Source: Schmidtea nova (lineage: Eukaryota). From it: a DNA stretch of 64,000 nt. Both the position numbers and the translations under genes were made by a program. Shown here piece after piece: positions 41,565 to 63,804 of this stretch; the stretch's first letter is position 1, and every line of letters starts with the position of its first letter. Where the stretch lies: positions 247,752,001 through 247,816,000 of the forward strand of contig CM097882.1 in assembly GCA_044892505.1 (NCBI GenBank). Reading direction: 5' to 3'. Under the pieces are notes generated by a model. That model was not told the DNA's origin, did not search any database, and saw only the letters and a program-made list of their open reading frames with translations.

Positions 41565-42977
41565 CTACTCCAACCATCCTTTCGTTGACTTCGTGTTCAT
41601 CACTGTTGTACTTGCTTTCTTCTCGATCTCCAACTCTACATATAAGTTGTCGTTGTACAACATCTCCCACATTGTTTGGTGTGGTATGAATTTTGGTTCT
41701 CCAGTCGCTAATGAACATTCTGTGGTTGGTCTTTTGTAAGCTTCGTGCTTACCATCAATTTTGAATACTCTCGCTATTGTTTCTTTCGAGTTTCTCACTC
41801 TCATTATAGCCTTTGTTTCTAGTGGCCATTCTAATATGTCGTCGTAACCACCTTTACACAACGCAAAGAATAATGACACATGCGTTTCCTTTCCTGATCC
41901 ATCTCCATTTGGATAAATTCTCATTCGAACTTTGTATCCATTTTTCCACAGATAGAATGGTGGACTTGTTACCGACACCTGACTTCCTGCTTTTGCTGCT
42001 GCGAACTTTTCGTTGAAATTCTTAATTTTCCATATATATGGTGCAACAGGTAAACTCTCGATATCCTCTGCATCTCGCACCCACATTTGATGTCGCACGT
42101 TTACTTCTTTTACCAATGTCTCCATGACTTTGATTTTCTCCATCATTTTCTCTCTGGTGAGCTCGAATTGTTCTCTCGTTTCCAGCAATAACTCCGTCAT
42201 TATCCTCTGAGATTCGATTTCTTTTCCCAGCTTCTGTATGGTTTGCTCCATTTCTTCCAAATTTTCTATTAGCATCTCTGCGTGTTGTACCGTTTCGGTT
42301 TCCAAATGCTCTTTCATCTCTTTGCTTGTTTTCTTTACTGCACATCCTTGTTTACTCCATACGCACTTTCTTGGTCTTGATTCGCACTGTTCCCAATGTT
42401 CTCTCACCATCACTTCTTCTCCGGTTCCGCAATTACTTGGACAAATTCCTCGGAATTTTCCGCACACTTTCTCTTCTGCTACGTTGAGATGTTCTGTTTC
42501 GATTACTTCTCTCGTCTCTCTTTGTTCGCAGTATTGACACTCTATTATCTCTGCTTTGCACTCATCCTTGTGATTTCTCGACTGCTTGATGGTTATCGTC
42601 TGTTGACACTTTTCACATGTTGCTTTCTTGTTTTCGCATTTCTCCAGATGTTGTCTGAGTTCGATTATTTGACCTTTCCACTCACATGGTTGGTTTATAC
42701 ATTCTGTTTTTATCTTCCAGATCTCCTTTTGGATTGCTTTGTCTGGTTTCGTCTCGTTGATTAGTAGTTTATCGCCACACTCTGGACACTTTCTTGTCTC
42801 ACTTTCACTGATTATTTGCAATATACACTTGGTGCACATCCTGCATCCACATTCCGTTTGTCTCGGTTTTAACAGTAAATTTTTACACTTTACACACGTC
42901 ACATTTACTCCCCATTGTCGATTCTCTCCTCTTAGAATCTCGATTGTTTGGTAGTCTGCTTCGCTTTCTGTTCTCAT
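41565..42977 (-). CDS. TRAF-family protein (RING, TRAF zinc fingers, coiled coil, MATH)
   Basis: RING CVKC...CGCRMCTKC...CPEC; zinc finger CINQPCEWKG...HLEKC; MATH YIWKIKNF, SPPFY, GYKVRMRIYPNGDG, HVSLFFALCKGGYDDILEWP. Confidence 0.93.
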   Translation of the reverse strand: MRTESEADYQTIEILRGENRQWGVNVTCVKCKNLLLKPRQTECGCRMCTKCILQIISESETRKCPECGDKLLINETKPDKAIQKEIWKIKTECINQPCEWKGQIIELRQHLEKCENKKATCEKCQQTITIKQSRNHKDECKAEIIECQYCEQRETREVIETEHLNVAEEKVCGKFRGICPSNCGTGEEVMVREHWEQCESRPRKCVWSKQGCAVKKTSKEMKEHLETETVQHAEMLIENLEEMEQTIQKLGKEIESQRIMTELLLETREQFELTREKMMEKIKVMETLVKEVNVRHQMWVRDAEDIESLPVAPYIWKIKNFNEKFAAAKAGSQVSVTSPPFYLWKNGYKVRMRIYPNGDGSGKETHVSLFFALCKGGYDDILEWPLETKAIMRVRNSKETIARVFKIDGKHEAYKRPTTECSLATGEPKFIPHQTMWEMLYNDNLYVELEIEKKASTTVMNTKSTKGWLE

Positions 42978-43544: not shown

Positions 43545-46500
43545 CTATACAACTATCACTGGTTTTCCTTCGTACAGTTCCTCGTCCTCGATCTGTACCC
43601 ACATTTCTTCGTGTTTTGATCGTCTTTTCAGCTCTTCTCGTACTTCTTTTGGTAGTTTTATGTTGTAATTCGTGACCTTTACGTCCGGCCATTTTACTGC
43701 TATGGTCTTATTTCTCATGCCATATCTCCAACATACTATCATGATCGTTATCAGTGGGATACACGCTATGAATACTCCCATGCTGATTAAACCCATTATT
43801 GTTTTCCCGATGTTCATTCTTGGAGTTTCACTTTGGTTTATCATCACGCCATATTGACCTTTCCATTCCGCTTCCCATTGTTCATATTGTTGTTGTCTCC
43901 GTCTGACTTCTTCAATCACTTTCTCTGGTTCCCATCTTTCTTGGCGGTTTGGTATTGTTTCTTCCTTCTCGTTTTGTTCTCTCTTCTGACTCAATTCTCG
44001 GAATTCTAACTTTCTGATTCTCCTCTTTATCGGCGTGTAATAGGTTTCGCACCTTTCTTGTGGATTTCCTTGTGTATCCACTTCTTCAATTGCACACACT
44101 TCGTATTCTGCGTTTGTTTTCAACTTCCTCATTTCTACCTCAATAATTTCTCCTTTGTCATCTGCGGTCTTTTGACATCTTCGTGGAGACTTTCCCATAC
44201 TGTTTGGCATTAATGTCCAACAGATTTCTAGGACCTTTTTATGGATCTTCCATATTATCAACGTTGTTGATTCCGATTCGTGTTCTATTGTCGTGCTTTC
44301 TGTGGTTGCCTGTTGAGTTCCTTGACTGTTTGTTGTCGTGGTTCTTTTTGACTTTCTTTTCCTCTGTCGACTTCCTCCCATTTCAATCGTTCTTGTTCCG
44401 TTAATTTGCTCTGGCGTCTTGTACAGTTTGCACTCCAGGCTTCTTAGTATTATTTCTCTTATTCTTCGAATTACGCAAATTTCGTAGGTTTGTCCGACTT
44501 CGAATCCATTTAGTTGAAACGGGATTCCTCGTTCTCTCGTTCTACATTGCGGTATTATGTTGTTGGTCGATACTCCGATGTATTTTCTCCAACACATCCC
44601 AATTGTTCTCCGACCAATGTTTTTTATCTCCACGGTTACTACTTCATTCGCAATCGTTTCTTGATCTTGTTTCTTTCTTTTTGGGAACTCAATTATCTCC
44701 TTTGCTTGGAACACTTTACACTCGCTTGTTCCTGGTCTGTTTCCGTTTGCTGCTTTTCCCATGAGACATAGTTCACATTTTCTATCTGTCTCCATTTCGG
44801 TTATCTCAATTTCTTCATTTGTCTCTGCTTCTCGACTTTCTCTTGTTTCGCTGATTCCAATTACTTCATTGTTTCGTCCCCAACATCTTCCATTCGTTGT
44901 TCGTTGGTCTTGGATATTTACTAACGTCATCACGCTGATATCTATGTCCTCCATGATTCTCTTAATGAGAATTAATATTAATGCTACACATATCAATTCT
45001 GGTTGGAATGTTAATTTGCCCGCTGAATTTTTGGTTATTCTTTCTTTCTCTGTTCGGTTTCTGATTCCCTCTTCTGCTTCCGTTTGATTCTTCCCTTTCT
45101 CTGGTTCTACTTCTGTTCTTCTCGTTGTCTCTTCGCTTCTTTTCTCAATCCATTTCTGTATTTTCAGCGCTTCTGTTGCTTTATATAATTGACATGCAGT
45201 TACTTGAGGTGCTTTTGGTTCTCCTCTCTGCTTTATTGCGCATATTATGTATGACTTTTCTTTCTCCAACCCTTTGATTTGGATGACGTCTCGCTTCAAA
45301 TCTGACAATATACACTTCAGCGTATCGTTTTTCTTCAGATTTTCTTTCCAGCATATTCTTTCGTATACTTCATTTCCTCTGATTATTTCCAGCGTGACGT
45401 ATTGTTTCTTGGCTTCTCCTTGTCCGATGATTGTTATCAATATCGCTATACACAACATTTCTGGTCTCAAAAGTAGACTTCCTGTTCGTTTTCCATGGTT
45501 CGCACATTCGTCTTTTGTTCCACTGTTTTCTCGTTCTTCTGCTTCTCTTTTCTTGTCGTTTCTCGTTGGCTTTGGTTCTTCTTGTCTTTCTTTTTCATCA
45601 TCTTCCGTTCTTTTGTTGTCATTGTCTTCTTTGTTCTTTTCGTTGTTACTTTTGTCGTCGAAATCTCTGTAACCACCCCCTGGTCCTTTGAAAATGTCGT
45701 CCTCGACATTAATTTCTTTAATCAATCTTTCATACGCTTGAACCGCGAGTGTGCTAGACTCGAATTCTCGTATTTCCATCTCTTTGGATGGTTCTATGTT
45801 TTCTAGTCTACTTTGCTTGATTGTTTCTTTGGCTTTTGCCCATTCATTCACATATTTTCTGAACAAGTCTTTCCATCTTCCCATTCGTTCCTGTTCCTTT
45901 GGGTTGTTCGTAAGTTTCAAATCTCTTCTCTTCAAGAATTCTTCTACTATCTCTGGCTTTTTGTGTCTTAATAACGCGCTTCTGATACACCAATTCTGGT
46001 TCTGTTCCATATGATCATTGATCTTGAACGCTGGTTCCTTAGTGACCGGATTCACCCATGTTAGTAATGCTCTTGTTTTCTCTATGTCGTGTATCATTAC
46101 TGTTAGACTGAAATTCTTTACGTTATTTGCCAGATATTCGATGTCATCCTGTTTCTTGATGGACTTTATGAACTTGATCATCTCGAAGTTGTTCCACTGT
46201 ATTGCGATATCTATGATGGAATTGTTCTTTCCATTTTTCCCTTCGATTTTTGCTCCTGCTTCGTATAATTCATTTAGCACTTTCAACTTCGTCTTCTTTC
46301 TTGCTGCGATTATCATGATTGTATCTCCGTTATCGTCAACCGTATTCATGTCTGCTTCGCACTTGACCATTGCTTTCGTTATTTCTAGCACTTCGTTTTC
46401 TTTCTTTCGGCGTAATGCCCAGTGTATCGGCAATCTCCCATCCTTTGATAATAGGAATGCCACTGGCATTTGATTTTTGATCGTTTCTATGTCGATCTCG

Positions 46501-49500
46501 TTATAATCCCCTTGTGCATATCTGTGCACTCTCTCTGTAATTGCTCCTAGTATTTCCAACGAGTTTTTATTCTCTTTGAATTCCGATAATTTTTCCTGTG
46601 CTTTTGCTACGATTGCATCTAGTCTCTCTTGATATTCCGCTTTTGCATTGAACAACACTGCTTTGCTTCTTATTCGTGTTTGCATCTGTTTCATCCGTTG
46701 GTCTTGATACACTGCTTGTCTGAAGAACTGTCCATACTTCAATGTTTCCACTAACTCTTTATATCGCTTGCTTATTTCTTTGTGCTGCTTTTGGATGTCA
46801 TAGAAATGTTCAAAGCTCATATCCGGATTCCATTGTTTATCACACCATTTCTTGATTAATCCGAATAATTCTTTCTTTCTGTCTTCCAGCTTGTATTCTC
46901 TTGGGTTCTCGCTAACCCGTAGCGTATCTCTCGCTATCAACACTGCAAGTGTTTTTGGATCGTATGTTACCTCTACTAGATGTTTCAGTAACGCATTTTC
47001 TCCCCTTATGAACACTTCATTACAATCGACGACCCATGAATCTCTTTCTGGTCGTTTCCACTTTAACAGTATTCTCCAGGTTTTACTGTTTTTTACCCTG
47101 ATTGCTTGTTTCATGATCGATCCTCTAGTTAGTTCATCGATTTCCCACGTGGCATTTTCCGTAATATACTTTAGTATTCGGTGATTCGCTCTATCGATTG
47201 CATGATTCAAGAACGTTCGTCCCTCTTTATCTTTTGTCATCCAATTCGATCTGGTGTTTCCGAATAGCTTGACTATTTCATCGTTTCTTCCATGAATTGT
47301 CATCATCATAAGTGGAGTAATTCCTTCCCAATTCACTTTGTCAATTTCTCCTCCACCTTCGAGTATCATCTCCACAATCTCTTTCACTTTTTCGTTTCCA
47401 CCGTGCTTGATTGCATTGTGCAACGCGGTGTTGCCGTCTTTATCTTGTAGATTCAATGTTTGAGGGATTACCTCTAGCAGCGTTCTTGTTATTGGATGTG
47501 CTGTTCTATCCTTCGCATACTCCATTACATTCTTTCGAACCTCCGTCAGTATATTGAAATCGAGCCACCATTTCCATTCTGGTATAATTTCTCTGGTTTT
47601 CTTTGCCAGTTCTTTGATATCTATTGCTTCTCTTCGATTGTCTTCTAGACTTGTTTGCGGCTTTTGTTGTACTCGCAACATATTGATTCTCGCCGTCTGT
47701 GATCTTGTCATCACCCGTTTTTCCGGTAATAGAGTTGCTGTCTTTGGTACTTTTCTGCATCGACATGCATTCACGTATATTGGTCTTACCAATGGATTGT
47801 TCACCAATCGTACTCGCACATTATTTTCGTTTACTGTTGTTATTTCGTATGGCCCTTTGCCTGGTCGTTGGAGTTTCTTGACTGTACCGGGTATTATCTC
47901 TGGTGTCTCGATTATCACCCAATCTCCAACTTTTAAATCAGGTGCTTTCACATTCTTTTTCTGATCATGTAGATCCTTGTAACTCTCTTGATAGAACTTG
48001 ATGTTTAGTTCCGCCGTTTTCCAGATTTCTTGCATTCTTTCTTTGAACTTTGTAACGTAATCGTCAACCTCCATGTACTGTGATAATGGTGGTTGGTATT
48101 CTAAATCGATCGGTAAGTTGCAATCTCTTCCGTACATTAGTTGGAATGGACTTAGCTTTGTTGCCGCATGTATTGACATTCTATATGCCATTAAACACAA
48201 GTTGATATACTCGTCCCAGTCAGTCTGATGTTTGCTGACGTAATTCGACAACATGCGTATCAATGTTCCATTGAACCTTTCTGTTTGTCCGTTCGTTTGT
48301 GGATGGTATGGGGATGTTCGTAATTTCGCAATTCGGAAGTAGTTCGTAACTTCGTCTAATATTTCACTCATGAAATTTGTTCCTTGATCCGTTAGGATTT
48401 TCTTTGGTGTTCCGTATCTGCAGCATATCTCTTCCACCAATATTCTTGCGACTGTTTTCGCTTTTTGATCTGGTATTGCGAACGCTTCTGGGAACTTTGT
48501 TAGATAGTCCGTGACTACTAATATATACTGATTTCCCTTTAAACTTTCCGGTAATGGTCCAACTACATCCATTGCTATCGTCGCCATAGGTTCTGCAGGT
48601 ATTGGCATTGGTTTCAGGGGTGTTTTCCACTTTGTTCCGACGTTCTTTCTTGTCGCACAGGTCAAGCAGTTCTTTATCCATTCTTTCACATCATCTTCCA
48701 TGGTTGGCCAAAAATACTTTTGTCTCAGTCTTCCGCTTGTCTTTTTTGCAGACATATGTCCGCCTAATTTTCCGTCATGATATTGAGTCATGATTTCTTT
48801 TCGTCTATTCGCAGGTAAGCACATTAATCTTCGTTCTCCATCTTGTATCAATAACCATCCTTTTTCCATCACATATCTATGTTGATATTTCTGCATATGT
48901 TCGCGCAACGTTTGGTTCTTGCCGAATATTTCTGTTTCCCTTTCTTTCAAATACTTGCTGATCATTCCCAACTCCTCGTCTTCGAGTTGATCTTTCCTTA
49001 GTTCGTTGAAATCCAAATCTTCCGCTATTAATGCACATATTTTCAGGGCGTTTAGGTTCACCAATTCTGGGAATGTAAATCTTGACATACAATCCGCATT
49101 TGCATTTGCTTTTCCTGCTTTAAACTTTATGAATGGCGAGTATTCTTGCAACTGCATTGCCCAACGCATCAATCTACTTGATGATTCTTTATGTTGACCT
49201 AACCATACTAGCGGTTGATGATCCGTCGTGATATATATTTCATGACCCCACAATAGGTACTTGAAATGCTTGATTGCCAATATTATCGCATAGGCTTCTC
49301 TTTCCGTGACTGAGTAATTCTTTTCATGCTTCCTGAACGTTCGACTGTAATATCCAATTACTCTTTCCTTGCCTTCTTCGTCAAATTGGCCTAGTACTGC
49401 TCCTGCTGCATATCCACTTGCGTCTGTTGCCAACAGAAATGGCTTCTTAAAGTCTGGATGGACCAATATTGGTGCTGTAATCAGCTTATCTCGTAATGTT

Positions 49501-52500
49501 TCAAATGCTGCTTGTTGCTCTTCTCCCCACACAAACGACACGTCTTGTCTTACCAATTCTTGCATTGGCTTTGATATTCCTGCATAATCCTTGATAAACT
49601 TTCGATAATATCCACACAATCCCAAAAATTCTTGTATTTGAGTCACTGTCTTTGGTGGTGGACATTCTTTGACTTTTTCGATATTCCTTGGATCTGGTTC
49701 TTTTCCTTTTGCTGATACAATGTGACCTAAGAATGTCACTTTTTCTTTTGCCCAATCGCACTTTGACGGCTTTAATTTCAGTTTCCACTGTCTCAATTTC
49801 ACGAACACATTTCTGATGTCTTGCAAGTGACCTTCGAATGTTGCGGAGTAGATCAATAGATCGTCGATATACACCATGCATTGTTTTATGCCATGTGTTA
49901 CGAAATTCATGCATCTCTGGAATGATGCTGGCGCGTTTGTTAACCCAAACGGCATTTTCTTGAATTGGTACAGATCTCGTCCGATTGTAAATGCTGTCTT
50001 CTCTTTATCCTCGTCTTTCATTTTGATCTGCCAATATCCGCTTTTTAAATCTAATGACGTGAAATAAGCTGCTCCTTGTAACGTCAATAACATTTCGTTT
50101 ATGTCTGGCAGTGGGTACGTATCTCTTTTCGTAACGGCATTTAATCGTCTGTAATCGATACAGAATCTTTGAGTTCCATCCTTCTTTTTCACCATCACCA
50201 CCGGGAATTGCCAGGGTGAGCAACTAGGTTCGATGACCTCTGCATCTAACATCTTTTGTACCTCTTCTTCTGCCACTGCTTTTTGAGCTTCTGCCAGTTT
50301 ATATGGTCGTAATGCGATTGGCGTTTCGTCCGTCAACGGTATCGTGTGTAATGTTACGTCACATGTTCCTAAATCCAGATCTGATGCTGCGAATATATCT
50401 TTATATTCCATCAACAGTTTCTGTAACTGTTCTTTTTGTCGTTCGTCTAACAACACACTGTCGATTTTCCATGGTAATTCGTCTTTGCTTTTCTCGTTCT
50501 TGTCGGGTATTTCGATTTCGGACATGGGTGTCAATTTACCCAATCTCTCATTCTCGTATATTATCTTGTCCTCTTCGTCGAAGTTCACCAGATTTATCGG
50601 TATTTCTCCTTCTTGGTTTATCGTGACCAATTCTCTTGCCATTGGTAATTCTTTCTTTGCTTCGAACTTCTTACTCGGTTCGAATATCATATCTCCCTTT
50701 ATTGTTGAATCGATCTTGACATAGCACATCATTTCGTGCCTCGCTGGCACTACTATTTGTTCCGCACTTGCCACTTTAACTTTCATTCTGCAGATTTTTC
50801 CTGTTCTATCTTTTAGCTTCATTGCTCCTAGATCAATTACGATTTCCTTGAACAGGTCTGGCATCAGGTCAGTTCCAATAATACATGGTACACTCAGCGA
50901 TGGTATTACAGCGATGTACGTGTTGATCTCTGCACCTCGATGCTTAATTTTTACAAACCATCTTCCGGCTACTTCTACTGTCTCTTGACTGCACGCGATT
51001 ACATGTACGTTCGTCTTCTCGATTTCTCCTTGATTTTTCTCTGGTATATAATTAATGTCGATTGCCGAAATATTCGCGCCTGTATCGATCATTGCTTCGA
51101 TTTCTCTTCCATTTATTTCTACGGTTGTTGTTAAAATCGGTCCCATATTTGTGGACATAACCGCTATCGTGTGCGTGTCTTCTAACGAGTTTACACTTCC
51201 ACCTCGTTTTACTTTGCATCCTTCTGGAATTATCGGGTATATACTTGTCATCGGCATCATCTGCATCATATTTGGCTTCGCTTTGTATATCGGTTCGTTA
51301 TACATTGACTGAGGTGGAGCGCTGTATCTCCAATTCTCAACTGCACTCTTTTCGTTATACTGTGGAATCTGGTTTATATTCGCTTGTCCTCCTTGATCGT
51401 CATCGTCATCATCATCATTGCTTGAATCATCTTGTGTTCGATATCCTCTCACTCTTTCCCATAATCCTTTCCTTTCTTTCTTTAATTGTCTTCTTGCTTG
51501 TTCGTCTTGCATTATCTTTTTGAATTTCCTTCCAACATCTTCATTTGTTCCTCTCATTTTTGCAAGTATCTTCAACAACCTCTTTATTCGATGTATGTCT
51601 TTTGAGTGTCCGTGTAACACCATCGTTTTCGCAAGGAATGGTAAAAATCCTACTACCATTTTCCAATTCACTTTCTTTTCTCTCTTGTAGATGTCGAAAC
51701 ACGCTAACATTTGCGTTATTATCACTCTGACGATTTGTATTATCAGTATAACTCCCAGTATTCCAGCCATCATTTGTCCAAATATCAGGAATCTTCCCCA
51801 CATTGCCTTCATCATATTTTCTGTGGCTTTCTTGAAATGTGCCGGTGACAACAGCAGTTCGTAATTCGGTCCTTCTCGATAATTCGTTCCTCCCGTTATT
51901 GTTACGATATTTGACAGTAGTGCTTCTCTTCTTGCCGGGAATAATATATTCTGCCTTGCTGCTTCTAAATCTTTTGGACTATAGATTCCGTTGTTTGAGA
52001 CATCTACGTCGCTGAACTGTCTATCTTTTGACAACTGCATTAGCTCAAATTCTCTTGGTGCTAATACTTCGGTTCTTCCTGGGAACATAACCCATTTGCC
52101 ATCTGGCTTCTGATAAAGCGGTCCGTACGCATTACTACAGTTGAACGGATTTGGTTCAAAACTTGGTGGATTGATGATTCTCGTCACCGGTTGAACATAT
52201 CGTACTTTTCCTTTATAATCGATTTCTAGTTCGTTTGTACATTGTCCAGGTTTCAACTGCGTTGTTGCTGCTAGCGATGCGTGTGTCTTTTCGCAAATGT
52301 ATACATACATTGCCTCTCCAACCACTCTTCCGAAATGTCCTTCTCTCAGTGGTAATAATGGCATCGCGCTATCTGGATTCGTAATCGCTACGGCCAACTT
52401 TGTCTTTAATATTTCCCGATTCAGTATACAATCGTTGTTTATTAGATCATAGTACACTTTTTGCAATGAGGCTTGTCCTCTATGGAATAAGAAATCCATT

Positions 52501-55500
52501 TTATTATTCACATACAAGTGTAGCTTGATATCCATTGTGTCGATCTTGGGTTTCGCATTCGGTACTTCTTGCTTTGACACATATATTCCTGGATAGTTTG
52601 TTTCGTATACTGTTGTACTGCACTTAAGGGTTGCTTTCCCTTTTATGAATCTCATGCCCACATCCTGATTTGTGGTTATCAACACTGTTGGTGTGGTTCT
52701 CATCTCTATCCGTTTTTCTCTATGATCGGGTTTCAATTGTCTTTTATTCTCTAAAGCTTCTTTGAGATGTTTTGCTCTAGCTTTGTCGTCATCGTCTTCT
52801 TCTTGGAACGTTTTGCCTTGAATTTCGTCAAACTTTGCTCCTTGTAGCAGTTGTAATTGACATTCGTTCACTTTTGGTTTATACACCAAAGTTGACATTC
52901 CCGTTTGACACATGCTTCTGTCAATTTTACACATGGATAACGTTTTCATTTCTCCTGTTGTTGGTTCGAAGAATGCTTCGTAGCTTTTCAGTTCGACTAT
53001 ATACGTATCCATTACCACTAAGTTGGTTGCAGGTACTCCAAATATTGGGTAGGTTTCTCCTTGACAATATCCTTCTCCTCCCGTAATTCGTCCTGCTACG
53101 TAATATGTCTGCTGTAACATCATTCCTGGCTTTCCTCTTATCTTGATTTTATCTCTCGTTGTCACTTCTCCATGTTTAAACAATGCTTCGCAGTCTTCTC
53201 CCTGTAACACGATTGGTTCTCTTTCTGTTCCTGGCATGACAATTGCTGAGTAATGTCCTCTACCGCAATAGAATGCGAATCTCGTCTTCTGTACCTTGCA
53301 TTCATTCACCATTGTCTTTATTAGTTCTGCCTCTTGATATACGTGGTACCATTGTTCCTTTTTTATCTCTTTTAACTCTACGGGAGTTGCATCTTTGCAC
53401 TGCTCCGTACCTCTCAATGAGTACTTCTCTCCCAACTTCATTTGATCACAGTCAAATACTTCAAATGTTGTTACACCTTCTGTGCTTAACAACCAAACTA
53501 GCATCATCATGATTATCGAGTTTAGATTCAACGTCGATCTTCCGTTTCCTTGCATCGTTTGTCTATTCTCCATTTCTCTCAATACTCCTTCGAGTTTCTT
53601 TCTCATCACGTTAGAACCTTCTTTTGTCTGGTTCTCTTTTATGAACTTTTCCCATCCTCCTTTTCTGAGGATATATGGTTCAATTTCCTTCTCGATAATC
53701 ATCGCCGTATTTTTAATATGTCTTCCCATCGGACTTGACTTCGGACTTCCTCGGCTTAGCGTTAGCAAATTGTATATCGTATACGAGATTGCTACTAGAT
53801 ATTTGCTATCCGTCTCTGCTCCGTTAAGTAGCCTTTTTATCAACATCGTGGTTCCTTGCCAATCTAGATGATTCGATTTTGTTTTTGCCTTTATCAATTC
53901 TGGCATAATCGGTGCTATTGCATTGTGTAGCATTCTTGCCTTTGTACTGGGTTCGTTTATCCGCCACAAATTCTTTAATTCTGGGTCAATTATCGCTAAC
54001 ACATCCATTATCGTTTTGGTGAGCCATTCTTCTCCTTGACAAACTTGATTCTCCTCTTTTCCTCTGATCTCTGCGATTTTATCCAATTTCTTCAAGCAAA
54101 TCTCCCATTGCTCTTGTCTCCTTTCTTCCCTTGTCTTTGGGATTGCTGTTGCTGGATCTATCTTTGGTCTTCCTCTTGGTCGTTTTTCCATTCCAGTTCC
54201 TGTTTCTACAAATCTCGATGTTCTTCCGGTTTCTTCCGTAACATCTCTTCCTTCGTTTGCTCGTTGTTCTAACCATCTTTCCATTTCTTGAGTAAACTGT
54301 GGTTGTTCTTGCTCGTCTTCCGAATCGCTTACCATTTCTATGACTACCTCCTGTTCCACTCCTTGATCGTCGATTTCTGCTGGTGACGTTATTGGCATCT
54401 CTATTATTCTGTCGAAAATATTCGCCGTTGGTTTTTGAGTCAACTTCGTTAGTTCTTCTATCGCCTCATCACTATCTGTTAGTATCTCATCCACGTCATA
54501 CGCTTCTGGTGGTGTTCTCTCTCTCGTTTTTATTGGTGTTGTCCTTGCTTGTCCCGAACTTGTTCCTGGGGTCATTGTTGACTTCATCGGACTTGGTGTA
54601 CTCATGCTCCCTTTCGTTTTCTTTTCCTCTTTAAACTTCAGTGGTTGACCCACTATCTGTGCCACTGTTAGCGTATTCATTAGATCCAATTGCACTGGTG
54701 TCAGCCAGATTTCCAAATTATTATCCAACGATCGTCCTTGATGTTGCAGGTGGAATGGTAGTTCGTACATCAGTTTCTCTTTAACACTCTTCACTTTTTC
54801 TGTTAGCATCACCCAAAACTCTTCTTTTCTCTGATTCGGATACATTATCCTCAAATGTATTTTCTGTGGCGTTTCCTCCGCAAACTCTTTGTTTCTCCAC
54901 TTTTTTATTACATCGTCTAGTTGCTCTGGACACCACTCGTTAACTCTCTTGTATTCTGCTATCGCTTTAGCTACTTTTCTCAAGTTTGTCATGTCTTCTC
55001 CATTTGAGATTATGAATTGTGCTAAGCCTTTTATTGTTTGTCTTTTTCCCCGAGTATTCCCTCTCAACAGTTCGATCAATTCACTCGTTTTCTGTTTCTC
55101 CAATTCTGCCCATATTACTGCAGTTTCTGGTCCGTCTAAGTCCGTTGGTAATAACTTCCTTGTTACCATACATATCCGTTTCGTATTCCGTTCATATCTG
55201 TCTTCTCCTTCCGGATCTTCTTCATACACGCCTCTTTTCACTTTCCAACATTTCTCTTTGTTATCCCATTGTTTCTCTACTGGCGTCAATCGTCGTCTGT
55301 TAAGATCCACTTCTCCTAATATTGTCTCCCATTCTGGCTTCATCTGCCAGTTCCGATAGATTTCTACTATTTGTCTCAACTTACGCATAACGTCCTCTTG
55401 TCGTTTCTTTCTCCTTTCTTCATCCCTTGGTGTTGCTCTTTGCACATCATCCATTCTGATGACATGTATTGTCTGATAATTATCCCATATGCCGATTTTG

Positions 55501-58412
55501 TACGCTCGTCTTTCGTCACGTTCGTTCAGTAGATGTTCCTTGTATTTTATCGCAATGTCATCCTCGAATTCATCTTCCCGTTCTCGTTGTAATATCGTCT
55601 CATTGATGACATCTACTATTTCTCCCACTTTACTATCTGGTATTACCTCAATTTGTTTTGTCTCTTCGTTTGGTAATCTCACGGTAATCTTCAGATCTGA
55701 TACCTCTCCTCGTTTAAACATTTCTTTTCCCATCTTGGCAATTAGCTTGTCCGTCTTGAAATTTGAATGTCTCGTTTGACTTGTATCTCGTATGTTCTCG
55801 ATACACTGTTTCAAATTCTCATACTCGTTTTTCGTCAATTCCTTTCGATGTTTCTTGATTTGTTGGATGATCTGTTCTATCATCGTATTCAAATTCTCCG
55901 TCAAGATTCTTTCCTTTGCCTCTACCAACTGAGGTTTTATTCTCATCTCATAACACGTATTTGCTTCTTTGACGATTCCCTGTAAGTTCTCTTCCTTCTT
56001 GGTGTTGCATATTGATAACGTCGTTATTTCTCCTGGCCATATGCCTGTGTCTATCATATGCGTTCCTTTTCTCACCAATCCGTTTCCCGAATATATGAAC
56101 TTGTCTTTGTACGAGCTTCCCAATCTGTCCTCAACCCATCGATAAATTCCGTCTGTCATTGGGTTCCTTATCCAGATTCTCGGTGAGCACTCGTTTATCC
56201 ATATGTGTATTACGTATTCGTTCAGTGGTTCTTTCAATAACTTCTCTATGAATTCTTGTATTACCCTCACTTCTCTTTCTTGTAACCACTCTTTATACTT
56301 CGTCTGCCATACTGCTCGTATAAACTTTCGGTATCGTTTCGTGTCGATAAACTCCTCGTTATGGATTACTTCCAACGCATTATCCATCAGCTTCTGGATT
56401 TCATCTTCCTTTACTAATGCTGTTTCTATTGTCTTGACCACTTCCATCTTTTTATCCTCGTTTTCCGGTTCCTTTAGCATGTCTCCTGCCAGACTGCTAA
56501 CTTCGCTGTCGTCTTCTTCCTCTGACAACTCTTGTCTTGGGTGTCTCAGCATCCCAATATGTGCGGTTGGTCTCGCTTCGTTTTTGCTAACTTCTTGTAT
56601 TAGTTCATTCTCGTTTCCTGTTACTTCAGCTTTTCCCATTCTTTTCTCCAACTCATCTATTTCTTCCAACCGTCTTCGTCTTATTTTTCCTTTGAATATT
56701 CGACTGATCCGAGTTTGATGTTTCACTGGTGGTGGGATTTTCTCCGGTTCCACCTCTCTGATGATCATCACGTTTATTTTCGTCTCCGTTACTCCCATAT
56801 CTTCCCATATATCAGTCATCTTTAACTTCACTTCCGGTAAATCCTCTGTTTGTAGGAATGCTTCTCTGGGCAGTTTCGTCACTCCCGGAATCATCTCATT
56901 TACTTTATTGAACAATCTTCCCACTTCTTCTTTTACATCGTATTTGAATCGCCACACGTGATCATTCGGCATGATCACCAACATCCCTCTTTGTTTGATT
57001 CTTACTTCCTCTTCTTGATTCGCTTCTTTTTCTATTTCTTCAACTTTTTGATCCTGCTCTGCGGCTTCTACTTCCTGATTCACTTCTCCTTGTTTCTGCT
57101 CTTCGTTTCTTTTCTCTTTAATTTCTAACTCGTCTGACTCATCTTGCTGCTTCTCTTCCATCGTTGCTCGCATCATGTTGATCCTTGGATTTCCCTTTTT
57201 TAACTGTTGTAATCGTTGTTGCCTGACTTGTTCTTCTTCTCGTCGTACTCTAGCCCATTCTTGATTATGTTTCTGTTGACTCTCTCTGTTTTCTCTTTCG
57301 GCCTCAGCTTCTATTAACTGGATCATGTTTATCTTTGGTTGAGCAGCTTGTTGGCTTCCCTTTGCCATGCTTTCGATTATCTCGTGTAATCTGGATACCT
57401 CCTGTCTCAACTTAGCTTCTTTCATACTAGCTTCGTTTGCACTGCTGTTTGGGTTGTTCCGTTGTTGGCCTTGATTCCCATAGCTTGGTCGATTCCCGTA
57501 ATTCGGTCTATTTCCACTGTTTGACCAACTTCTCTGTTGATTACAGTCTCTTGACATGTGTCCGGTTTTTCCACATGTGTAACACGTTTTCCCATAACAT
57601 CGATTTTCTGAGTGACCTTTTTGTCCACACAGTTTACAGGCTACATTCTGAAAACAGTCTTGTTGCCAATGTCCGTTTTTCCCACACGTCTGACATTGCC
57701 TATTCTGCCTGTCATTGTAACTATTTCCTCCATTCGTGTTCACCGTGATATATCCGTTATTCTTCCTCGCTGGCGGTTCTTTGAACAATCTCTGCGAATG
57801 GGGAATACTTTGATTCATGTTTCTTTTTCCTTGTTCTTCATCTTCTGTCGTTTTTCCCATTACCGCCGTAATTCTCATGTCGTTCATTTCCATATGCAAT
57901 TCGAATAGGTTGGCTGCTTCCAACGCTTCATCTACTGTTTTACATCCTTTGCATCCCACTTGTGCTCTGATGTCAGGTCTCCTGAGACCTCGTACGAATA
58001 ACGCTGTCATCAATTCTTCGTCTACTGGGCTTCCTCTATTGAATGCCAGTTTCGCCAACTTCCTTAATTCGCTTGCGTACACCGCATTTGACTCGTTTCT
58101 CCTCTGTTTTCTTGCTGAGAACTCATCGAACGCTTCATTCAGCACCTTGTTTATCCCAAACGTCTGTTGGAAGAACTCCTTGATTGCTTCCCACGTTCTG
58201 GGTGGATTACTTCCCGATCTCTTTTCAATATACAGATCCAATGCGCTATCTTTTAAGTATAGCGGGATTCGATTTGCTAACGTTTCTGCACTCCATCCGC
58301 ATATATCTACGAATATGCCAAATTCCTTCAGAAACGTATCCAATCTACTGGCGTCTCCATTGAATGGTTCGCCCTTGAATTTTTCTCTTAGATCCTCTCT
58401 GTGATCACTCAT
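43545..58412 (-). CDS. 4955-aa polyprotein: Gag, Ubl-like, Bcl-2-like, class III glycoprotein, PR, RT, RNase H, IN, ankyrins, FN3-like repeats, TM
   Basis: Single open frame. Gag MHR-like QRRNESNAVYASELRKL; 3 CCHC knuckles (~57690-57545); DTG (51086); YIDD (~49870); TDAS...EREAYA; HHCC, D-D-E and GPY integrase; TALH/TPL ankyrins. Confidence 0.97.
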   Translation of the reverse strand: MSDHREDLREKFKGEPFNGDASRLDTFLKEFGIFVDICGWSAETLANRIPLYLKDSALDLYIEKRSGSNPPRTWEAIKEFFQQTFGINKVLNEAFDEFSARKQRRNESNAVYASELRKLAKLAFNRGSPVDEELMTALFVRGLRRPDIRAQVGCKGCKTVDEALEAANLFELHMEMNDMRITAVMGKTTEDEEQGKRNMNQSIPHSQRLFKEPPARKNNGYITVNTNGGNSYNDRQNRQCQTCGKNGHWQQDCFQNVACKLCGQKGHSENRCYGKTCYTCGKTGHMSRDCNQQRSWSNSGNRPNYGNRPSYGNQGQQRNNPNSSANEASMKEAKLRQEVSRLHEIIESMAKGSQQAAQPKINMIQLIEAEAERENRESQQKHNQEWARVRREEEQVRQQRLQQLKKGNPRINMMRATMEEKQQDESDELEIKEKRNEEQKQGEVNQEVEAAEQDQKVEEIEKEANQEEEVRIKQRGMLVIMPNDHVWRFKYDVKEEVGRLFNKVNEMIPGVTKLPREAFLQTEDLPEVKLKMTDIWEDMGVTETKINVMIIREVEPEKIPPPVKHQTRISRIFKGKIRRRRLEEIDELEKRMGKAEVTGNENELIQEVSKNEARPTAHIGMLRHPRQELSEEEDDSEVSSLAGDMLKEPENEDKKMEVVKTIETALVKEDEIQKLMDNALEVIHNEEFIDTKRYRKFIRAVWQTKYKEWLQEREVRVIQEFIEKLLKEPLNEYVIHIWINECSPRIWIRNPMTDGIYRWVEDRLGSSYKDKFIYSGNGLVRKGTHMIDTGIWPGEITTLSICNTKKEENLQGIVKEANTCYEMRIKPQLVEAKERILTENLNTMIEQIIQQIKKHRKELTKNEYENLKQCIENIRDTSQTRHSNFKTDKLIAKMGKEMFKRGEVSDLKITVRLPNEETKQIEVIPDSKVGEIVDVINETILQREREDEFEDDIAIKYKEHLLNERDERRAYKIGIWDNYQTIHVIRMDDVQRATPRDEERRKKRQEDVMRKLRQIVEIYRNWQMKPEWETILGEVDLNRRRLTPVEKQWDNKEKCWKVKRGVYEEDPEGEDRYERNTKRICMVTRKLLPTDLDGPETAVIWAELEKQKTSELIELLRGNTRGKRQTIKGLAQFIISNGEDMTNLRKVAKAIAEYKRVNEWCPEQLDDVIKKWRNKEFAEETPQKIHLRIMYPNQRKEEFWVMLTEKVKSVKEKLMYELPFHLQHQGRSLDNNLEIWLTPVQLDLMNTLTVAQIVGQPLKFKEEKKTKGSMSTPSPMKSTMTPGTSSGQARTTPIKTRERTPPEAYDVDEILTDSDEAIEELTKLTQKPTANIFDRIIEMPITSPAEIDDQGVEQEVVIEMVSDSEDEQEQPQFTQEMERWLEQRANEGRDVTEETGRTSRFVETGTGMEKRPRGRPKIDPATAIPKTREERRQEQWEICLKKLDKIAEIRGKEENQVCQGEEWLTKTIMDVLAIIDPELKNLWRINEPSTKARMLHNAIAPIMPELIKAKTKSNHLDWQGTTMLIKRLLNGAETDSKYLVAISYTIYNLLTLSRGSPKSSPMGRHIKNTAMIIEKEIEPYILRKGGWEKFIKENQTKEGSNVMRKKLEGVLREMENRQTMQGNGRSTLNLNSIIMMMLVWLLSTEGVTTFEVFDCDQMKLGEKYSLRGTEQCKDATPVELKEIKKEQWYHVYQEAELIKTMVNECKVQKTRFAFYCGRGHYSAIVMPGTEREPIVLQGEDCEALFKHGEVTTRDKIKIRGKPGMMLQQTYYVAGRITGGEGYCQGETYPIFGVPATNLVVMDTYIVELKSYEAFFEPTTGEMKTLSMCKIDRSMCQTGMSTLVYKPKVNECQLQLLQGAKFDEIQGKTFQEEDDDDKARAKHLKEALENKRQLKPDHREKRIEMRTTPTVLITTNQDVGMRFIKGKATLKCSTTVYETNYPGIYVSKQEVPNAKPKIDTMDIKLHLYVNNKMDFLFHRGQASLQKVYYDLINNDCILNREILKTKLAVAITNPDSAMPLLPLREGHFGRVVGEAMYVYICEKTHASLAATTQLKPGQCTNELEIDYKGKVRYVQPVTRIINPPSFEPNPFNCSNAYGPLYQKPDGKWVMFPGRTEVLAPREFELMQLSKDRQFSDVDVSNNGIYSPKDLEAARQNILFPARREALLSNIVTITGGTNYREGPNYELLLSPAHFKKATENMMKAMWGRFLIFGQMMAGILGVILIIQIVRVIITQMLACFDIYKREKKVNWKMVVGFLPFLAKTMVLHGHSKDIHRIKRLLKILAKMRGTNEDVGRKFKKIMQDEQARRQLKKERKGLWERVRGYRTQDDSSNDDDDDDDQGGQANINQIPQYNEKSAVENWRYSAPPQSMYNEPIYKAKPNMMQMMPMTSIYPIIPEGCKVKRGGSVNSLEDTHTIAVMSTNMGPILTTTVEINGREIEAMIDTGANISAIDINYIPEKNQGEIEKTNVHVIACSQETVEVAGRWFVKIKHRGAEINTYIAVIPSLSVPCIIGTDLMPDLFKEIVIDLGAMKLKDRTGKICRMKVKVASAEQIVVPARHEMMCYVKIDSTIKGDMIFEPSKKFEAKKELPMARELVTINQEGEIPINLVNFDEEDKIIYENERLGKLTPMSEIEIPDKNEKSKDELPWKIDSVLLDERQKEQLQKLLMEYKDIFAASDLDLGTCDVTLHTIPLTDETPIALRPYKLAEAQKAVAEEEVQKMLDAEVIEPSCSPWQFPVVMVKKKDGTQRFCIDYRRLNAVTKRDTYPLPDINEMLLTLQGAAYFTSLDLKSGYWQIKMKDEDKEKTAFTIGRDLYQFKKMPFGLTNAPASFQRCMNFVTHGIKQCMVYIDDLLIYSATFEGHLQDIRNVFVKLRQWKLKLKPSKCDWAKEKVTFLGHIVSAKGKEPDPRNIEKVKECPPPKTVTQIQEFLGLCGYYRKFIKDYAGISKPMQELVRQDVSFVWGEEQQAAFETLRDKLITAPILVHPDFKKPFLLATDASGYAAGAVLGQFDEEGKERVIGYYSRTFRKHEKNYSVTEREAYAIILAIKHFKYLLWGHEIYITTDHQPLVWLGQHKESSSRLMRWAMQLQEYSPFIKFKAGKANANADCMSRFTFPELVNLNALKICALIAEDLDFNELRKDQLEDEELGMISKYLKERETEIFGKNQTLREHMQKYQHRYVMEKGWLLIQDGERRLMCLPANRRKEIMTQYHDGKLGGHMSAKKTSGRLRQKYFWPTMEDDVKEWIKNCLTCATRKNVGTKWKTPLKPMPIPAEPMATIAMDVVGPLPESLKGNQYILVVTDYLTKFPEAFAIPDQKAKTVARILVEEICCRYGTPKKILTDQGTNFMSEILDEVTNYFRIAKLRTSPYHPQTNGQTERFNGTLIRMLSNYVSKHQTDWDEYINLCLMAYRMSIHAATKLSPFQLMYGRDCNLPIDLEYQPPLSQYMEVDDYVTKFKERMQEIWKTAELNIKFYQESYKDLHDQKKNVKAPDLKVGDWVIIETPEIIPGTVKKLQRPGKGPYEITTVNENNVRVRLVNNPLVRPIYVNACRCRKVPKTATLLPEKRVMTRSQTARINMLRVQQKPQTSLEDNRREAIDIKELAKKTREIIPEWKWWLDFNILTEVRKNVMEYAKDRTAHPITRTLLEVIPQTLNLQDKDGNTALHNAIKHGGNEKVKEIVEMILEGGGEIDKVNWEGITPLMMMTIHGRNDEIVKLFGNTRSNWMTKDKEGRTFLNHAIDRANHRILKYITENATWEIDELTRGSIMKQAIRVKNSKTWRILLKWKRPERDSWVVDCNEVFIRGENALLKHLVEVTYDPKTLAVLIARDTLRVSENPREYKLEDRKKELFGLIKKWCDKQWNPDMSFEHFYDIQKQHKEISKRYKELVETLKYGQFFRQAVYQDQRMKQMQTRIRSKAVLFNAKAEYQERLDAIVAKAQEKLSEFKENKNSLEILGAITERVHRYAQGDYNEIDIETIKNQMPVAFLLSKDGRLPIHWALRRKKENEVLEITKAMVKCEADMNTVDDNGDTIMIIAARKKTKLKVLNELYEAGAKIEGKNGKNNSIIDIAIQWNNFEMIKFIKSIKKQDDIEYLANNVKNFSLTVMIHDIEKTRALLTWVNPVTKEPAFKINDHMEQNQNWCIRSALLRHKKPEIVEEFLKRRDLKLTNNPKEQERMGRWKDLFRKYVNEWAKAKETIKQSRLENIEPSKEMEIREFESSTLAVQAYERLIKEINVEDDIFKGPGGGYRDFDDKSNNEKNKEDNDNKRTEDDEKERQEEPKPTRNDKKREAEERENSGTKDECANHGKRTGSLLLRPEMLCIAILITIIGQGEAKKQYVTLEIIRGNEVYERICWKENLKKNDTLKCILSDLKRDVIQIKGLEKEKSYIICAIKQRGEPKAPQVTACQLYKATEALKIQKWIEKRSEETTRRTEVEPEKGKNQTEAEEGIRNRTEKERITKNSAGKLTFQPELICVALILILIKRIMEDIDISVMTLVNIQDQRTTNGRCWGRNNEVIGISETRESREAETNEEIEITEMETDRKCELCLMGKAANGNRPGTSECKVFQAKEIIEFPKRKKQDQETIANEVVTVEIKNIGRRTIGMCWRKYIGVSTNNIIPQCRTRERGIPFQLNGFEVGQTYEICVIRRIREIILRSLECKLYKTPEQINGTRTIEMGGSRQRKRKSKRTTTTNSQGTQQATTESTTIEHESESTTLIIWKIHKKVLEICWTLMPNSMGKSPRRCQKTADDKGEIIEVEMRKLKTNAEYEVCAIEEVDTQGNPQERCETYYTPIKRRIRKLEFRELSQKREQNEKEETIPNRQERWEPEKVIEEVRRRQQQYEQWEAEWKGQYGVMINQSETPRMNIGKTIMGLISMGVFIACIPLITIMIVCWRYGMRNKTIAVKWPDVKVTNYNIKLPKEVREELKRRSKHEEMWVQIEDEELYEGKPVIVV

Positions 58413-61388: not shown

Positions 61389-61847
61389 TTACAAGTACAC
61401 TGTTATTTTCTCGGATACGGGAAGGTTGCACATAGGACATCGTTCATTTATTTTACACTCATTACAGAATCGAAAATGCCCACACGGCAACAACATTATC
61501 TGTATTTTGTTTATTTCACAGATATAACACGTCAGATATTGTCTCGTATGTTCTGTTGTTATTCTTATCCACTCATCGTGTTTTGTTGTTAACTGTTGTT
61601 CTAGCCTGTGGCACTCGATATTCATTTCGGGGTTGTTTAATCTTTCTCTGTACCATTTATATCTCGTTGCTGTATCCACTGTGTTCCTATTCTCGCTTAT
61701 GCTCATTATCATTTCGGCTCTCTCTGTGTTGTTTGTCGGTTCGTGGTATCCTTCTACCTCGAGTCGTCTTAACTTCCTCATTATTGTCTCCACTGTTTCG
61801 TTGTTTGTTTCGAAAAACGTTTGCATTTCTTTTATTTTGTTCTCCAT
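61389..61847 (-). CDS. 152-aa protein with C-terminal IAP-type C3HC4 RING finger (putative E3 ligase), upstream of gag
   Basis: CYICEINKIQIMLLPCGHFRFCNECKINERCPMCNLPVSEKITVYL matches the XIAP/cIAP-type RING spacing and terminal hydrophobic tail. Confidence 0.85.
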   Translation of the reverse strand: MENKIKEMQTFFETNNETVETIMRKLRRLEVEGYHEPTNNTERAEMIMSISENRNTVDTATRYKWYRERLNNPEMNIECHRLEQQLTTKHDEWIRITTEHTRQYLTCYICEINKIQIMLLPCGHFRFCNECKINERCPMCNLPVSEKITVYL

Positions 61848-62377
61848 CCCCTGAATGAATTACCGTTAATTTCTGTCGATCTTTATTTATTATTTATTAT
61901 TTCTATTCTATGGTAGCCCTACTGTTCGGTTTTTGTTGTTCTATTTCGCGCCACTGCGTATCCCCCCGTGTTCTTGAATGTCGCCCCGACATGATCATTG
62001 TTAGTTACTCACACTCATACCATTTTCATGCACACTTTTCCGCATACTTTTACCTTACGTCATGCATACTTTTCATCACTTTTCATACTGTTATTCCACA
62101 TACTATTCATCATACTTCATTCGTTCTCATACTTCCATTCCATTATCCTTCATACTTTCATTCTCATGCATACTTTCATCACGTTCATCAATCTCATTAT
62201 TTTACACTCATACTTTTATTTATTATTTTTCAACCCGATTCATTCTTGCTTCAGGACCCTCAAACCCTCTGTCATTCTTTACTTTACTTTTCCTCGCTAA
62301 ATTCAATTCATCCCGGTTCAGGCGCTCTAAACTGTCCGCAGATATCGAATTCACTTTTTCCCACAAAGATCGATTTA

Positions 62378-62401: not shown

Positions 62402-63804
62402 TGCTGGTGTGTTGGTTAGATTGACAACTGAGATCCTTATGATTTTATACGTTAGGGTGATCTCGCCAACATAAAAACATTCCCCCGCTGACACCCATGA
62501 TGTATCCCTAACTACTCATCATGTTGGTACTGTGTCAACGTTGTGAAATGACAAGGCAGGTGAGCAACCTTTCGGCTACTATTCCCTTGTTTATTCACGG
62601 GTCCACCACTACCGATAGAAGGTGTCTGTGGCTTTCTTTCGGTCCCACTTATGCTCTTTACTTTTCTCTAGGGTTGATTCAATGTTATTACATCTGCGGC
62701 TTTAAATGAATCCGAGTTTTAGTTATATTCCATTCTCAGTCATTCCACAAACAAACAAGACAAGTCAAATCATTCATTTTATACATTTATTTGTAGTTCA
62801 ACAATACAGAGGGTCGGATTACATTTAGTAGTTCTTGCTCGGATAGACCACGATGTTACGCTTTACCTATCTCGATTCTCATCGACTTTTGATGTACCAG
62901 CACTCCTTGAAGGTACACCCCCTCGTCAAGATACCTCATGTATATATCTTCCCTTGCGAAATGAGCTTCACCTTGATTTGATTTATGACCATTAACTGTC
63001 ACTCGATACCCTATCATCCTGATGTATAGCGTTTATACTAGACCGCCTCTACTTTGATTTAGTTCATGATCATTAGGTCTTACTCGATACCCTATGTGCA
63101 GTTAACTCCTTCCGCTTTCCAAATATTTAATACACTTATGGTCCCGCCGCATCAGCACCTCACAACCGAAAGATTGTGTTGCGCTGAGAGGCCCCAAGAA
63201 TCCGTCAGGCTGTTAGGCCTCCGGAAAACCTTATGGATTTTAATATGATTAACAATTATAATTATGAGGGTTTAAAAGACTAAAACAACATGAATTACCT
63301 TTTATTCCTTTTCCAAATTCGTTTCACAATGTTCTCGGTAGTCACAAACAGTTCACACTTGGTAAAGATAACATTGTCAAATACTGATTTGACTTCAGTA
63401 TTTATACTGAACCGGTGTTGTTGGTTAGCCAATCAGCATCGAGTATGTGTGTATGTCTGCTTCATTTTTTATGTTGTCGGCTTTTTGCTGCCTAACTTAA
63501 CTCGCCGATTTGTTTGGTTAATCATGCGGTAAGTTTTTCTTAGTCATCAATTTATTTTATTTTATTTTTGTTTTAGGTCTTTGGTGACATCCGCCCACGC
63601 GCTGTCATATTCCAATTTTTCTGCTTCGCATGAGTGAGTTTTGAAGATTTTTGTTGTTTGATTTATATTTTATTTCTTTTAGATGTTGCCGCCTATTTTG
63701 TTACGCTTTGGTGTTGGTAATTTATTTTGTTGTTATTCTGTATTTAATTTATTTTATTGATTGTATATTATTTTCAGATGCTGCTCGATTTGGCTGGCCC
63801 AACA
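62402..63804 (-). repeat. 5' LTR (1403 bp)
   Basis: Direct repeat of 38107-39509; TG...CA termini. Confidence 0.97.

What the first reader, a model, noticed from the sequence alone, without database searches (positions are those of the whole stretch)
53640..54030. Bcl-2-like domain hidden in the polyprotein just before the glycoprotein signal sequence
Seen: KYLVAI...SP...EPYILRKGGWEKF. Known: Bcl-2 has GRIVAF (BH1)...SP...TWIQDNGGWDAF (BH2). The count from the IVAF/LVAI block to the GGW tryptophan is 45 residues in both. A hydrophobic segment follows ~45 aa later and could serve as both Bcl-2 tail anchor and glycoprotein signal peptide. The canonical NWGR motif is absent. Inference: a viral-type Bcl-2-fold inhibitor of apoptosis or NF-kB, which I do not know from any retrotransposon.
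Basis: inference. Interest (0 to 1): 0.85.

Follow-up and report, generated by a model that had tools for sequence, protein, structure and literature searches.

The report
Bcl-2-fold domain in planarian Burro retroelement
A giant virus-like jumping gene of a planarian flatworm carries, just before its envelope protein, a strongly diverged relative of the cell-death regulator Bcl-2 that is predicted to stay tethered to the membrane and likely helps keep the host cell alive; such a domain is already reported in print for these Burro elements.

Summary
The domain is real but not new in kind. It lies at 53628-54047 (minus strand) in the 4,955-aa polyprotein of an intact 25.7-kb Gypsy-type LTR element with Burro architecture. 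Pfam misses it. A profile built from other retroelement families scores it at 41.7 bits (best of 300 shuffles 7.2). An AlphaFold model from retroelement rows only (pLDDT 78) matches Bcl-2 folds in the top 31 VIA-align rows (best Z 12.2, rmsd 2.8 over 137 residues). Sixteen retroelement copies form one branch (99/98), consistent with one old capture. This scan also noted the same thing twice in another genome. The BH1 Arg position stays K/R in 15 of 15 lineages; the Gly is kept in 1 of 15. The hydrophobic segment is spaced to the glycoprotein like a signal peptide and would tether the domain to the ER. A recent env swap between sister families breaks at that predicted cut site. Anti-death activity is inferred, not tested.

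The parts
53628..54047 (-). Bcl-2-fold domain (aa about 1577-1716), helices alpha1 to alpha8
   Evidence: AlphaFold model pLDDT 78; VIA-align model range 33-176 against Bcl-2 chains; leave-family-out profile 41.7 bits
53754..53810 (-). Central helix alpha5 (BH1 equivalent): TDSK in place of NWGR, Lys at the Arg position
53634..53678 (-). BH2 equivalent, PYILRKGGW
53466..53540 (-). Internal signal peptide of the glycoprotein (hydrophobic core 53481-53519); predicted signal-peptidase cut before FEVFDC; predicted leftover membrane tether of the Bcl-2-fold domain
   Evidence: hydropathy; spacing and small -3/-1 residues across 11 lineages; the cut site is judged by eye, no signal-peptide predictor was run
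54069..54185 (-). AT-hook-like RGRP motif (54162-54185) and a helix in front of the fold
   Evidence: motif in 5 of 7 lineages with upstream sequence; Pfam AT_hook E 0.066, below cut-off, in family C only; helix in model
51717..53465 (-). Monjiviricetes-type fusion glycoprotein (env) in frame, with its transmembrane helix at 51717-51773
   Evidence: Pfam PF24664 E 3e-71; hydropathy 2.55
43545..58412 (-). 4,955-aa polyprotein: Gag (3 CCHC), unknown region, Bcl-2 fold, signal, env, PR, RT, RNase H, IN, ankyrin repeats, hydrophobic tail
41565..42977 (-). Accessory TRAF-like ORF (RING, zf-TRAF, MATH)
   Evidence: Pfam MATH_2 E 2.6e-27; ORF
61389..61859 (-). Leader ORF with coiled coil and IAP-type RING, no BIR
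   Evidence: Pfam zf-C3HC4_3 E 4.9e-9; a 399-aa BIR-RING ORF of another repeat family matches only this RING in the window
62402..63804 (-). 5' LTR, 1,403 bp
   Evidence: identical to the 3' LTR; 4-bp target duplication TCAA
38107..39509 (-). 3' LTR, 1,403 bp

Best explanation
This is a diverged, conserved homolog of Bcl-2 inside the polyprotein of a Burro-type giant Gypsy retroelement; it is predicted to end up on the cytosolic face of the ER, held by the env signal peptide, and likely works as a pro-survival protein that sequesters host BH3 helices. Shown by calls: homology and predicted fold, position between Gag and env, purifying selection, one branch across many element lineages. Inferred steps: (1) the internal signal is inserted into the ER during translation and signal peptidase cuts before FEVFDC, sending the glycoprotein into the lumen; (2) the hydrophobic remnant stays on the upstream piece as a tether, as for the capsid/core anchors of flaviviruses and HCV (recalled); (3) the element's protease frees a piece of about 570 aa from Gag near aa 1202; (4) the groove binds BH3 helices of host death effectors or Beclin-1 and delays death of the cell that expresses the element. 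Confidence in homology and fold is about 0.97; the figure below is for the whole mechanism.
For: Fold: the top 31 VIA-align rows are Bcl-2 folds, best Z 12.2, rmsd 2.8 over 137 residues; first unrelated row Z 6.5. All rows shown by Foldseek on PDB are Bcl-2 family, and the alignment-free model also ranks Bcl-xL first, weakly (E 0.8). Homology: families C, D and E of the same genome carry the domain at the same place and hit Pfam Bcl-2 at 22-35 bits in 5 of 5 stretches. BLAST alignments run unbroken from the domain into env. Leave-family-out profile 41.7 bits. Selection: against the sister family pN is 0.144 with saturated pS 0.78, and identity is 73% against 42% in the next linker. The BH1 Arg position is K/R in 15 of 15 lineages and the final GW of BH2 is kept in 14 of 15; that this residue pairs with the BH3 Asp is recalled. 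Best structural neighbours are BH3-binding proteins. Signal: the hydrophobic core starts 19-23 residues before the glycoprotein's [YF]DC in 11 of 11 lineages but 31-60 residues after the BH2 Trp. Context: a Burro1 IAP is reported to protect stem cells from caspase death (PMC13465017 passages), and no BIR was found in this element.
Against: No Pfam Bcl-2 hit for the window domain or its sister, no PDB sequence hit below E 0.8 for their own profile (Bcl-2 row at E 2.1), and no Foldseek row at E <= 0.001 (best 7.5e-3). A profile of C/D/E alone gives only 8.9 bits, below the best shuffle at 9.3. Ten of the 17 rows in the 41.7-bit profile were found with a profile that held the window's family, so that test is partly circular. 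The BH1 Gly is kept in only 1 of 15 lineages, the BH1 Trp position in 1 of 15, and no BH3 G-D motif is seen; loss of this Gly disables mammalian Bcl-2 and Bcl-xL (recalled). The hydrophobic segment is weak for a lasting anchor (19-residue mean 1.52 against 1.83-2.28 in four cellular tails), and an ER site is away from mitochondria. The protease motif near aa 1200 is in families A and B only.
Confidence: 0.45

Rival explanations
1. The fold has lost BH3 binding and acts as a protein-interaction decoy in innate or stress signalling, like the poxviral Bcl-2-fold proteins A52, N1, B14 and K7, together with the element's TRAF-like, RING and ankyrin cargo.
For: NWGR and BH3 motifs are eroded. The element also encodes a TRAF-like ORF, ankyrin repeats and a RING. 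A52 and N1 are among the structural matches.
Against: A52 and N1 rank lower (Z 7.3-7.5) than BH3-binding chains (Z 10-12). The basic BH1 position and BH2 are kept across lineages. The poxviral signalling inhibitors lack a membrane tail (recalled).
Confidence: 0.25
2. The fold has been taken over for particle assembly: as a membrane-facing, matrix-like module it ties the Gag precursor to the ER membrane where env accumulates, and has little effect on cell death.
For: It is always in frame between Gag and the env signal, in 5 of 5 families in this genome and 6 of 10 outside hits with env attached, whereas BIR-RING, RING and TRAF cargo sit in separate ORFs. The signal segment travels with the Gag/Bcl-2 side in the env swap.
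Against: The tether is supplied by the signal segment, which needs no Bcl-2 fold. Conservation centres on the BH1 and BH2 positions.
Confidence: 0.22
3. It is a functionless relic, or a chance helical bundle.
For: Pfam and direct PDB sequence searches give nothing for the window domain; the Atlas gave no usable hit.
Against: Purifying selection, one branch of 16 rows, a confident model and Z 12.2.
Confidence: 0.05

Closest known systems
BCL2-like motif of Burro / GYPSM1 giant Gypsy-like LTR elements of planarians (PMC6431247 section 7, read in full; Grohme 2018 and Jurka 2007 not seen, known only through it)
   Same: Element over 25 kb; one ORF near 4,900-5,100 aa; Gag with three CCHC; BCL2-like motif directly before an in-frame env, then PR-RT-RH-IN; ankyrins; MATH/TRAF cargo; planarian host.
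   Different: This copy is too diverged for Pfam. TRAF is an accessory ORF downstream of the polyprotein. No BIR was found. A ubiquitin-like domain before the Bcl-2 fold was not shown for this family. Which named Burro family it belongs to was not tested.
Cellular pro-survival Bcl-2 proteins (Hydra Bcl-2-4 6wgz, Trichoplax Bcl-2L2 6yld, Bfl-1, Bcl-xL)
   Same: Eight-helix fold (Z 10-12, rmsd about 3); BH2 GGW; basic residue at the BH1 Arg position.
   Different: 8-15% identity; no NWGR; no BH3 G-D motif; tail 45 residues after BH2 instead of 23-24, and doubling as env signal; made inside a polyprotein.
Viral Bcl-2 mimics (ASFV A179L, KSHV Bcl-2, BHRF1, M11L, F1L; signalling type A52 and N1)
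   Same: Captured, diverged Bcl-2 fold in a parasite genome.
   Different: Those are stand-alone genes of large DNA viruses (recalled); this one is a polyprotein segment of a reverse-transcribing element.
Burro1 B-IAP (Lee et al. 2026, Dev Cell; not seen, known from passages of PMC13465017)
   Same: Anti-death cargo of a Burro element.
   Different: A BIR-RING protein acting on caspases and reported as tested; a different fold, and no BIR was found in this element.

Membership tests
Bcl-2 fold | Helical bundle of about eight helices around a central hydrophobic helix | tested here: met
   Predicted model pLDDT 78, pTM 0.72; top 31 VIA rows are Bcl-2 folds, Z up to 12.2
Bcl-2 fold | Sequence homology to Bcl-2 proteins | tested here: met
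   Indirect: leave-family-out profile 41.7 bits; host-type-only profile 11.6 bits against best shuffle 4.0; ten-row retroelement profile hits Bcl-xL at E 1.7e-8; hhalign of A/B against C/D/E E 1.8e-5, probability 78
Canonical multi-BH Bcl-2 family (Pfam PF00452) | Score over the Pfam gathering cut-off of 31.4 bits | tested here: not met
   No hit for the window domain; one sister-family copy reaches 35.0
Canonical multi-BH Bcl-2 family (Pfam PF00452) | BH1 NWGR motif | tested here: not met
   TDSK; only the basic residue is kept. Filed as a Bcl-2-fold homolog, not a canonical member
Canonical multi-BH Bcl-2 family (Pfam PF00452) | BH2 motif ending in GGW | tested here: met
   PYILRKGGW, with Tyr for the first Trp
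Canonical multi-BH Bcl-2 family (Pfam PF00452) | BH3 motif (L-x-x-x-G-D) on helix 2 | tested here: not met
   By inspection of the modelled helix 2 and the alignment
Canonical multi-BH Bcl-2 family (Pfam PF00452) | C-terminal transmembrane tail anchor | tested here: inconclusive
   Short hydrophobic core at Trp+46, 19-residue mean 1.52, spaced as the env signal
Canonical multi-BH Bcl-2 family (Pfam PF00452) | Binds BH3 helices or controls membrane permeabilisation | not testable with these tools
   Needs binding and cell-death assays
Burro-type giant Gypsy elements | LTR element over 20 kb with one polyprotein of about 5,000 aa, Gag with CCHC knuckles, PR-RT-RH-IN order | tested here: met
   25,698 bp, 4,955 aa
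Burro-type giant Gypsy elements | env in frame between the BCL2-like motif and the protease | tested here: met
   PF24664 E 3e-71; layout as in PMC6431247
Burro-type giant Gypsy elements | Ankyrin repeats and MATH/TRAF cargo | tested here: met
Burro-type giant Gypsy elements | BIR cargo, as listed for Burro1-4 | tested here: not met
   No BIR in the ORFs scanned or by tblastn of the window; treated as optional cargo, so the element is called Burro-type and given no family number
Burro-type giant Gypsy elements | Ubiquitin/SUMO-like domain before the BCL2-like motif | tested here: inconclusive
   Weak hits in family C (E 0.017) and P0003 (E 0.0046); nothing significant for the window
Burro-type giant Gypsy elements | Sequence identity to published Burro1-4 | not tested
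   No reference sequences were on hand
Poxviral Bcl-2-fold signalling inhibitors (A52, N1 type) | Closed groove and binding to TIR, TRAF or IKK-pathway proteins | not testable with these tools
   Only the fold was compared: Z 7.3-7.5

The most novel reading that the evidence does not exclude
Burro-type elements captured a Bcl-2 gene once, long ago, and wired it to the env signal peptide, so that every polyprotein made leaves an ER-tethered survival factor beside its glycoprotein and at the same time anchors Gag at the budding membrane. That would be a working Bcl-2 mimic in a reverse-transcribing element, binding BH3 helices without the BH1 glycine, and a second route, besides the IAP, by which these elements protect planarian cells.
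Probability: 0.25. Interest if true: 0.65.

Novelty: new member of a known kind. Interest (0 to 1): 0.3.

Why it matters
The kind of domain is already on record, so the finding itself is modest. What is added here is structural support, a map of which BH positions survive, evidence for one capture, and a testable topology. If the domain does block cell death, a high-copy, recently active element (140 of 150 scored matches at 81% identity or more; identical LTRs) would be supplying a Bcl-2 mimic to planarian cells, which bears on how these animals balance death and regeneration.

Tried and rejected
Pfam scan of the window domain: no family at E <= 1 or E <= 10. Word-indexed protein searches with the domain: none of 1,713 longer and none of 38 near-length candidates scored. 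ESM Atlas: no usable hit. Single-sequence AlphaFold: pLDDT 45.7, unusable alone. Co-folding of the domain with the host's own Bak-1 BH3 exon: no verdict, score 0.00, alignment not used, partner fold uncertain; no evidence either way. Expression: no RNA holder listed; two runs of unknown kind laid as contigs gave no joints and say nothing on splicing or expression. Donor gene: the tree leaves the nearest host group unresolved (57/35). Ubiquitin-like domain in the window family: not shown. A first LTR reading of 38106-39512 was corrected to 38107-39509 by the target duplication. Grohme 2018 and Lee 2026 are not held; their text and supplements may already hold this domain's analysis or a test. 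Nine literature searches showed no functional test of the Burro Bcl-2-like domain in their listings.

Full report
Setting. The finding lies on the minus strand in one open frame, 43545-58775, 4,955 aa from the first Met; residue numbers here count stop to stop. The frame belongs to an LTR element at 38107-63804 with identical 1,403-bp LTRs and a 4-bp target duplication, so the insertion is recent. Pfam gives Gag zinc knuckles, a Monjiviricetes fusion glycoprotein (E 3e-71), protease, RT, RNase H, integrase and ankyrins in that order, and a TRAF-like accessory ORF. Of 1,010 candidates in the genome 150 were scored: 140 match the domain at 81% or more (26 identical, the window included) and 10 form a sister family at 70-71%. 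The host is a Schmidtea-type planarian: two exons match the named S. mediterranea Bak-1 protein P0015, at 90% and 93%.

Observation. The family alignment shifts BH1 by one residue (KYLVAISY against RIVAFFSF), and the 'SP' is not conserved.

Direct searches fail. Pfam gives nothing for the window domain. A profile of the window family and its sister finds no PDB sequence below E 0.8. Two protein searches and the Atlas were blank.

Bridging succeeds. A genome search with Pfam Bcl-2 returned 149 matches. Of the 30 loci fetched, 16 are followed by the same glycoprotein and 14 are host-type. Three further element families (C, D, E) have Gag, the domain, a signal, env and pol in one frame and score 22-35 bits on PF00452 in 5 of 5 stretches. 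BLAST alignments with the window protein run from the domain straight into env. A ten-row profile hits Bcl-xL at E 1.7e-8 and finds 13 proteins among 1.84 billion: ten of retroelement type (six with env attached), one host-type and two Bcl-xL-like. A profile of 17 rows without the window family and its sister scores aa 1620-1712 at 41.7 bits; the best of 300 shuffles scored 7.2. Ten of those rows were found with a profile that held the window family. The independent C/D/E profile alone is not significant (8.9 bits against a best shuffle of 9.3), while a host-type-only profile gives 11.6 against 4.0.

Structure. AlphaFold with 21 retroelement rows and no cellular Bcl-2 gave pLDDT 78 and pTM 0.72. 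VIA-align over 48,161 chains ranks Bcl-2 folds in rows 1-31, best Z 12.2 with rmsd 2.8 over 137 residues; the first unrelated row has Z 6.5. The tool warns that Z under about 13 can be a common arrangement for helical bundles, but here one family fills the top, stands well above unrelated rows and covers the whole domain. Foldseek shows only Bcl-2 family rows on PDB (best E 7.5e-3, none at E <= 0.001) and herpesvirus Bcl-2 proteins at the top of the viral library (best E 0.1). The alignment-free model (pLDDT 45.7) also ranks Bcl-xL first, at E 0.8.

Evolution. On 92 columns, 16 retroelement rows form one side of a branch (99/98, LG+G4 without mixture; five near-duplicate rows of the alignment left out). 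This is consistent with one old capture; the donor is unresolved. Against the sister family the domain has pN 0.144 with saturated pS, and is better kept than the next linker. Across 15 lineages (six near-duplicate rows left out) the BH1 Arg position is always K or R, the Gly is kept once, and BH2 keeps its final GW in 14. Bcl-xL numbering and the roles of these residues are recalled.

The tail. In 11 of 11 lineages with sequence there, the hydrophobic core begins 19-23 residues before the glycoprotein's [YF]DC but 31-60 residues after the BH2 Trp; four cellular proteins have their tail at 23-24. Ten of the 11 have small residues at -3 and -1 of the same predicted cut, judged by eye. The segment is therefore first of all the env signal peptide. 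After cleavage it would remain on the upstream piece as an ER tether; this is inference. The env swap between sister families breaks at this point, so the signal segment is inherited with the Gag/Bcl-2 side. The nearest upstream candidate protease motif is at aa 1200 in this family and its sister, and is not seen near the domain in C, D or E (the motif was a lead from note e1-9378568).

Mechanism. I commit to an ER-tethered, BH3-sequestering survival factor (0.45), against a signalling decoy (0.25), an assembly or matrix-like role (0.22) and a relic (0.05). Homology, predicted fold, position and selection are shown; topology, release and activity are inferred.

What is known. PMC6431247 (section 7 read in full) states that a BCL2-like motif was noted in Burro-2, -3 and -4 and that the region between BCL2 and the protease is an in-frame env related to mononegavirus fusion glycoproteins. 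PMC13465017 (passages) reports that Lee et al. 2026 found a Burro1 IAP that protects stem cells. PMC8532177 (passages) shows Burro1 transcripts in tissues. Grohme 2018, Jurka 2007 and Lee 2026 were not seen. Two earlier notes of this scan reached the same reading in another genome; they are not independent support.

Verdict. A real Bcl-2-fold homolog, not a canonical NWGR member, in a Burro-type element: a new member of a known kind, with function open. Interest 0.3.

Noticed in passing
window 51575-53470 against L013-L016 and L066: Recent env swap between the window's family and its sister: synonymous sites are near saturation in Gag, the Bcl-2 fold, PR and RT (pS about 0.6-0.85) but pS is 0.31 with 98% amino-acid identity in env. 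Nucleotide identity jumps from about 0.65 to 0.87 or more at 53470, the predicted start of the mature glycoprotein, in 4 of 4 sister copies.
   Followed up: partly
window 54162-54185: AT-hook-like RGRP motif 40-60 residues before the fold in 5 of 7 lineages with upstream sequence; DNA binding or nuclear targeting untested.
   Followed up: partly
window 61389-61859 (minus): Leader ORF with coiled coil and IAP-type RING but no BIR; a separate high-copy 399-aa BIR-RING ORF exists elsewhere in the genome.
   Followed up: partly
window 41565-42977, 40314-41474, 43069-43419 (minus): Accessory ORFs after the polyprotein: an intact TRAF-like gene and two coiled-coil ORFs of unknown role.
   Followed up: no
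window 43548-45695 (minus): The last 700 aa of the polyprotein have three hydrophobic segments, two with a shared PE(M/L)(L/I)C motif, and Cys-containing repeats between them with no Pfam hit; possibly a second membrane protein.
   Followed up: no
window 60034-60700 and 59280-59772: A 19-bp tandem array and a family of five copies of about 50 bp in the leader.
   Followed up: no
window 62378-62395 (minus): Primer-binding-like site 6 bases inside the 5' LTR; likeness to the 3' end of tRNA-Pro is recalled, not tested.
   Followed up: no
L022, L024, L028, L036, L042, L045: A host group of diverged Bcl-2-like genes that share the Tyr in helix 5 with the retroelement domains; some copies have in-frame stops or introns. 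Possible donor lineage, unresolved.
   Followed up: partly
window 13161-16703 (plus): A second, smaller and frame-broken Gypsy-type element (CCHC, RT, RNase H, integrase zinc finger).
   Followed up: no
window 28517-30451 (minus): A 644-aa open frame with no Pfam hit.
   Followed up: no
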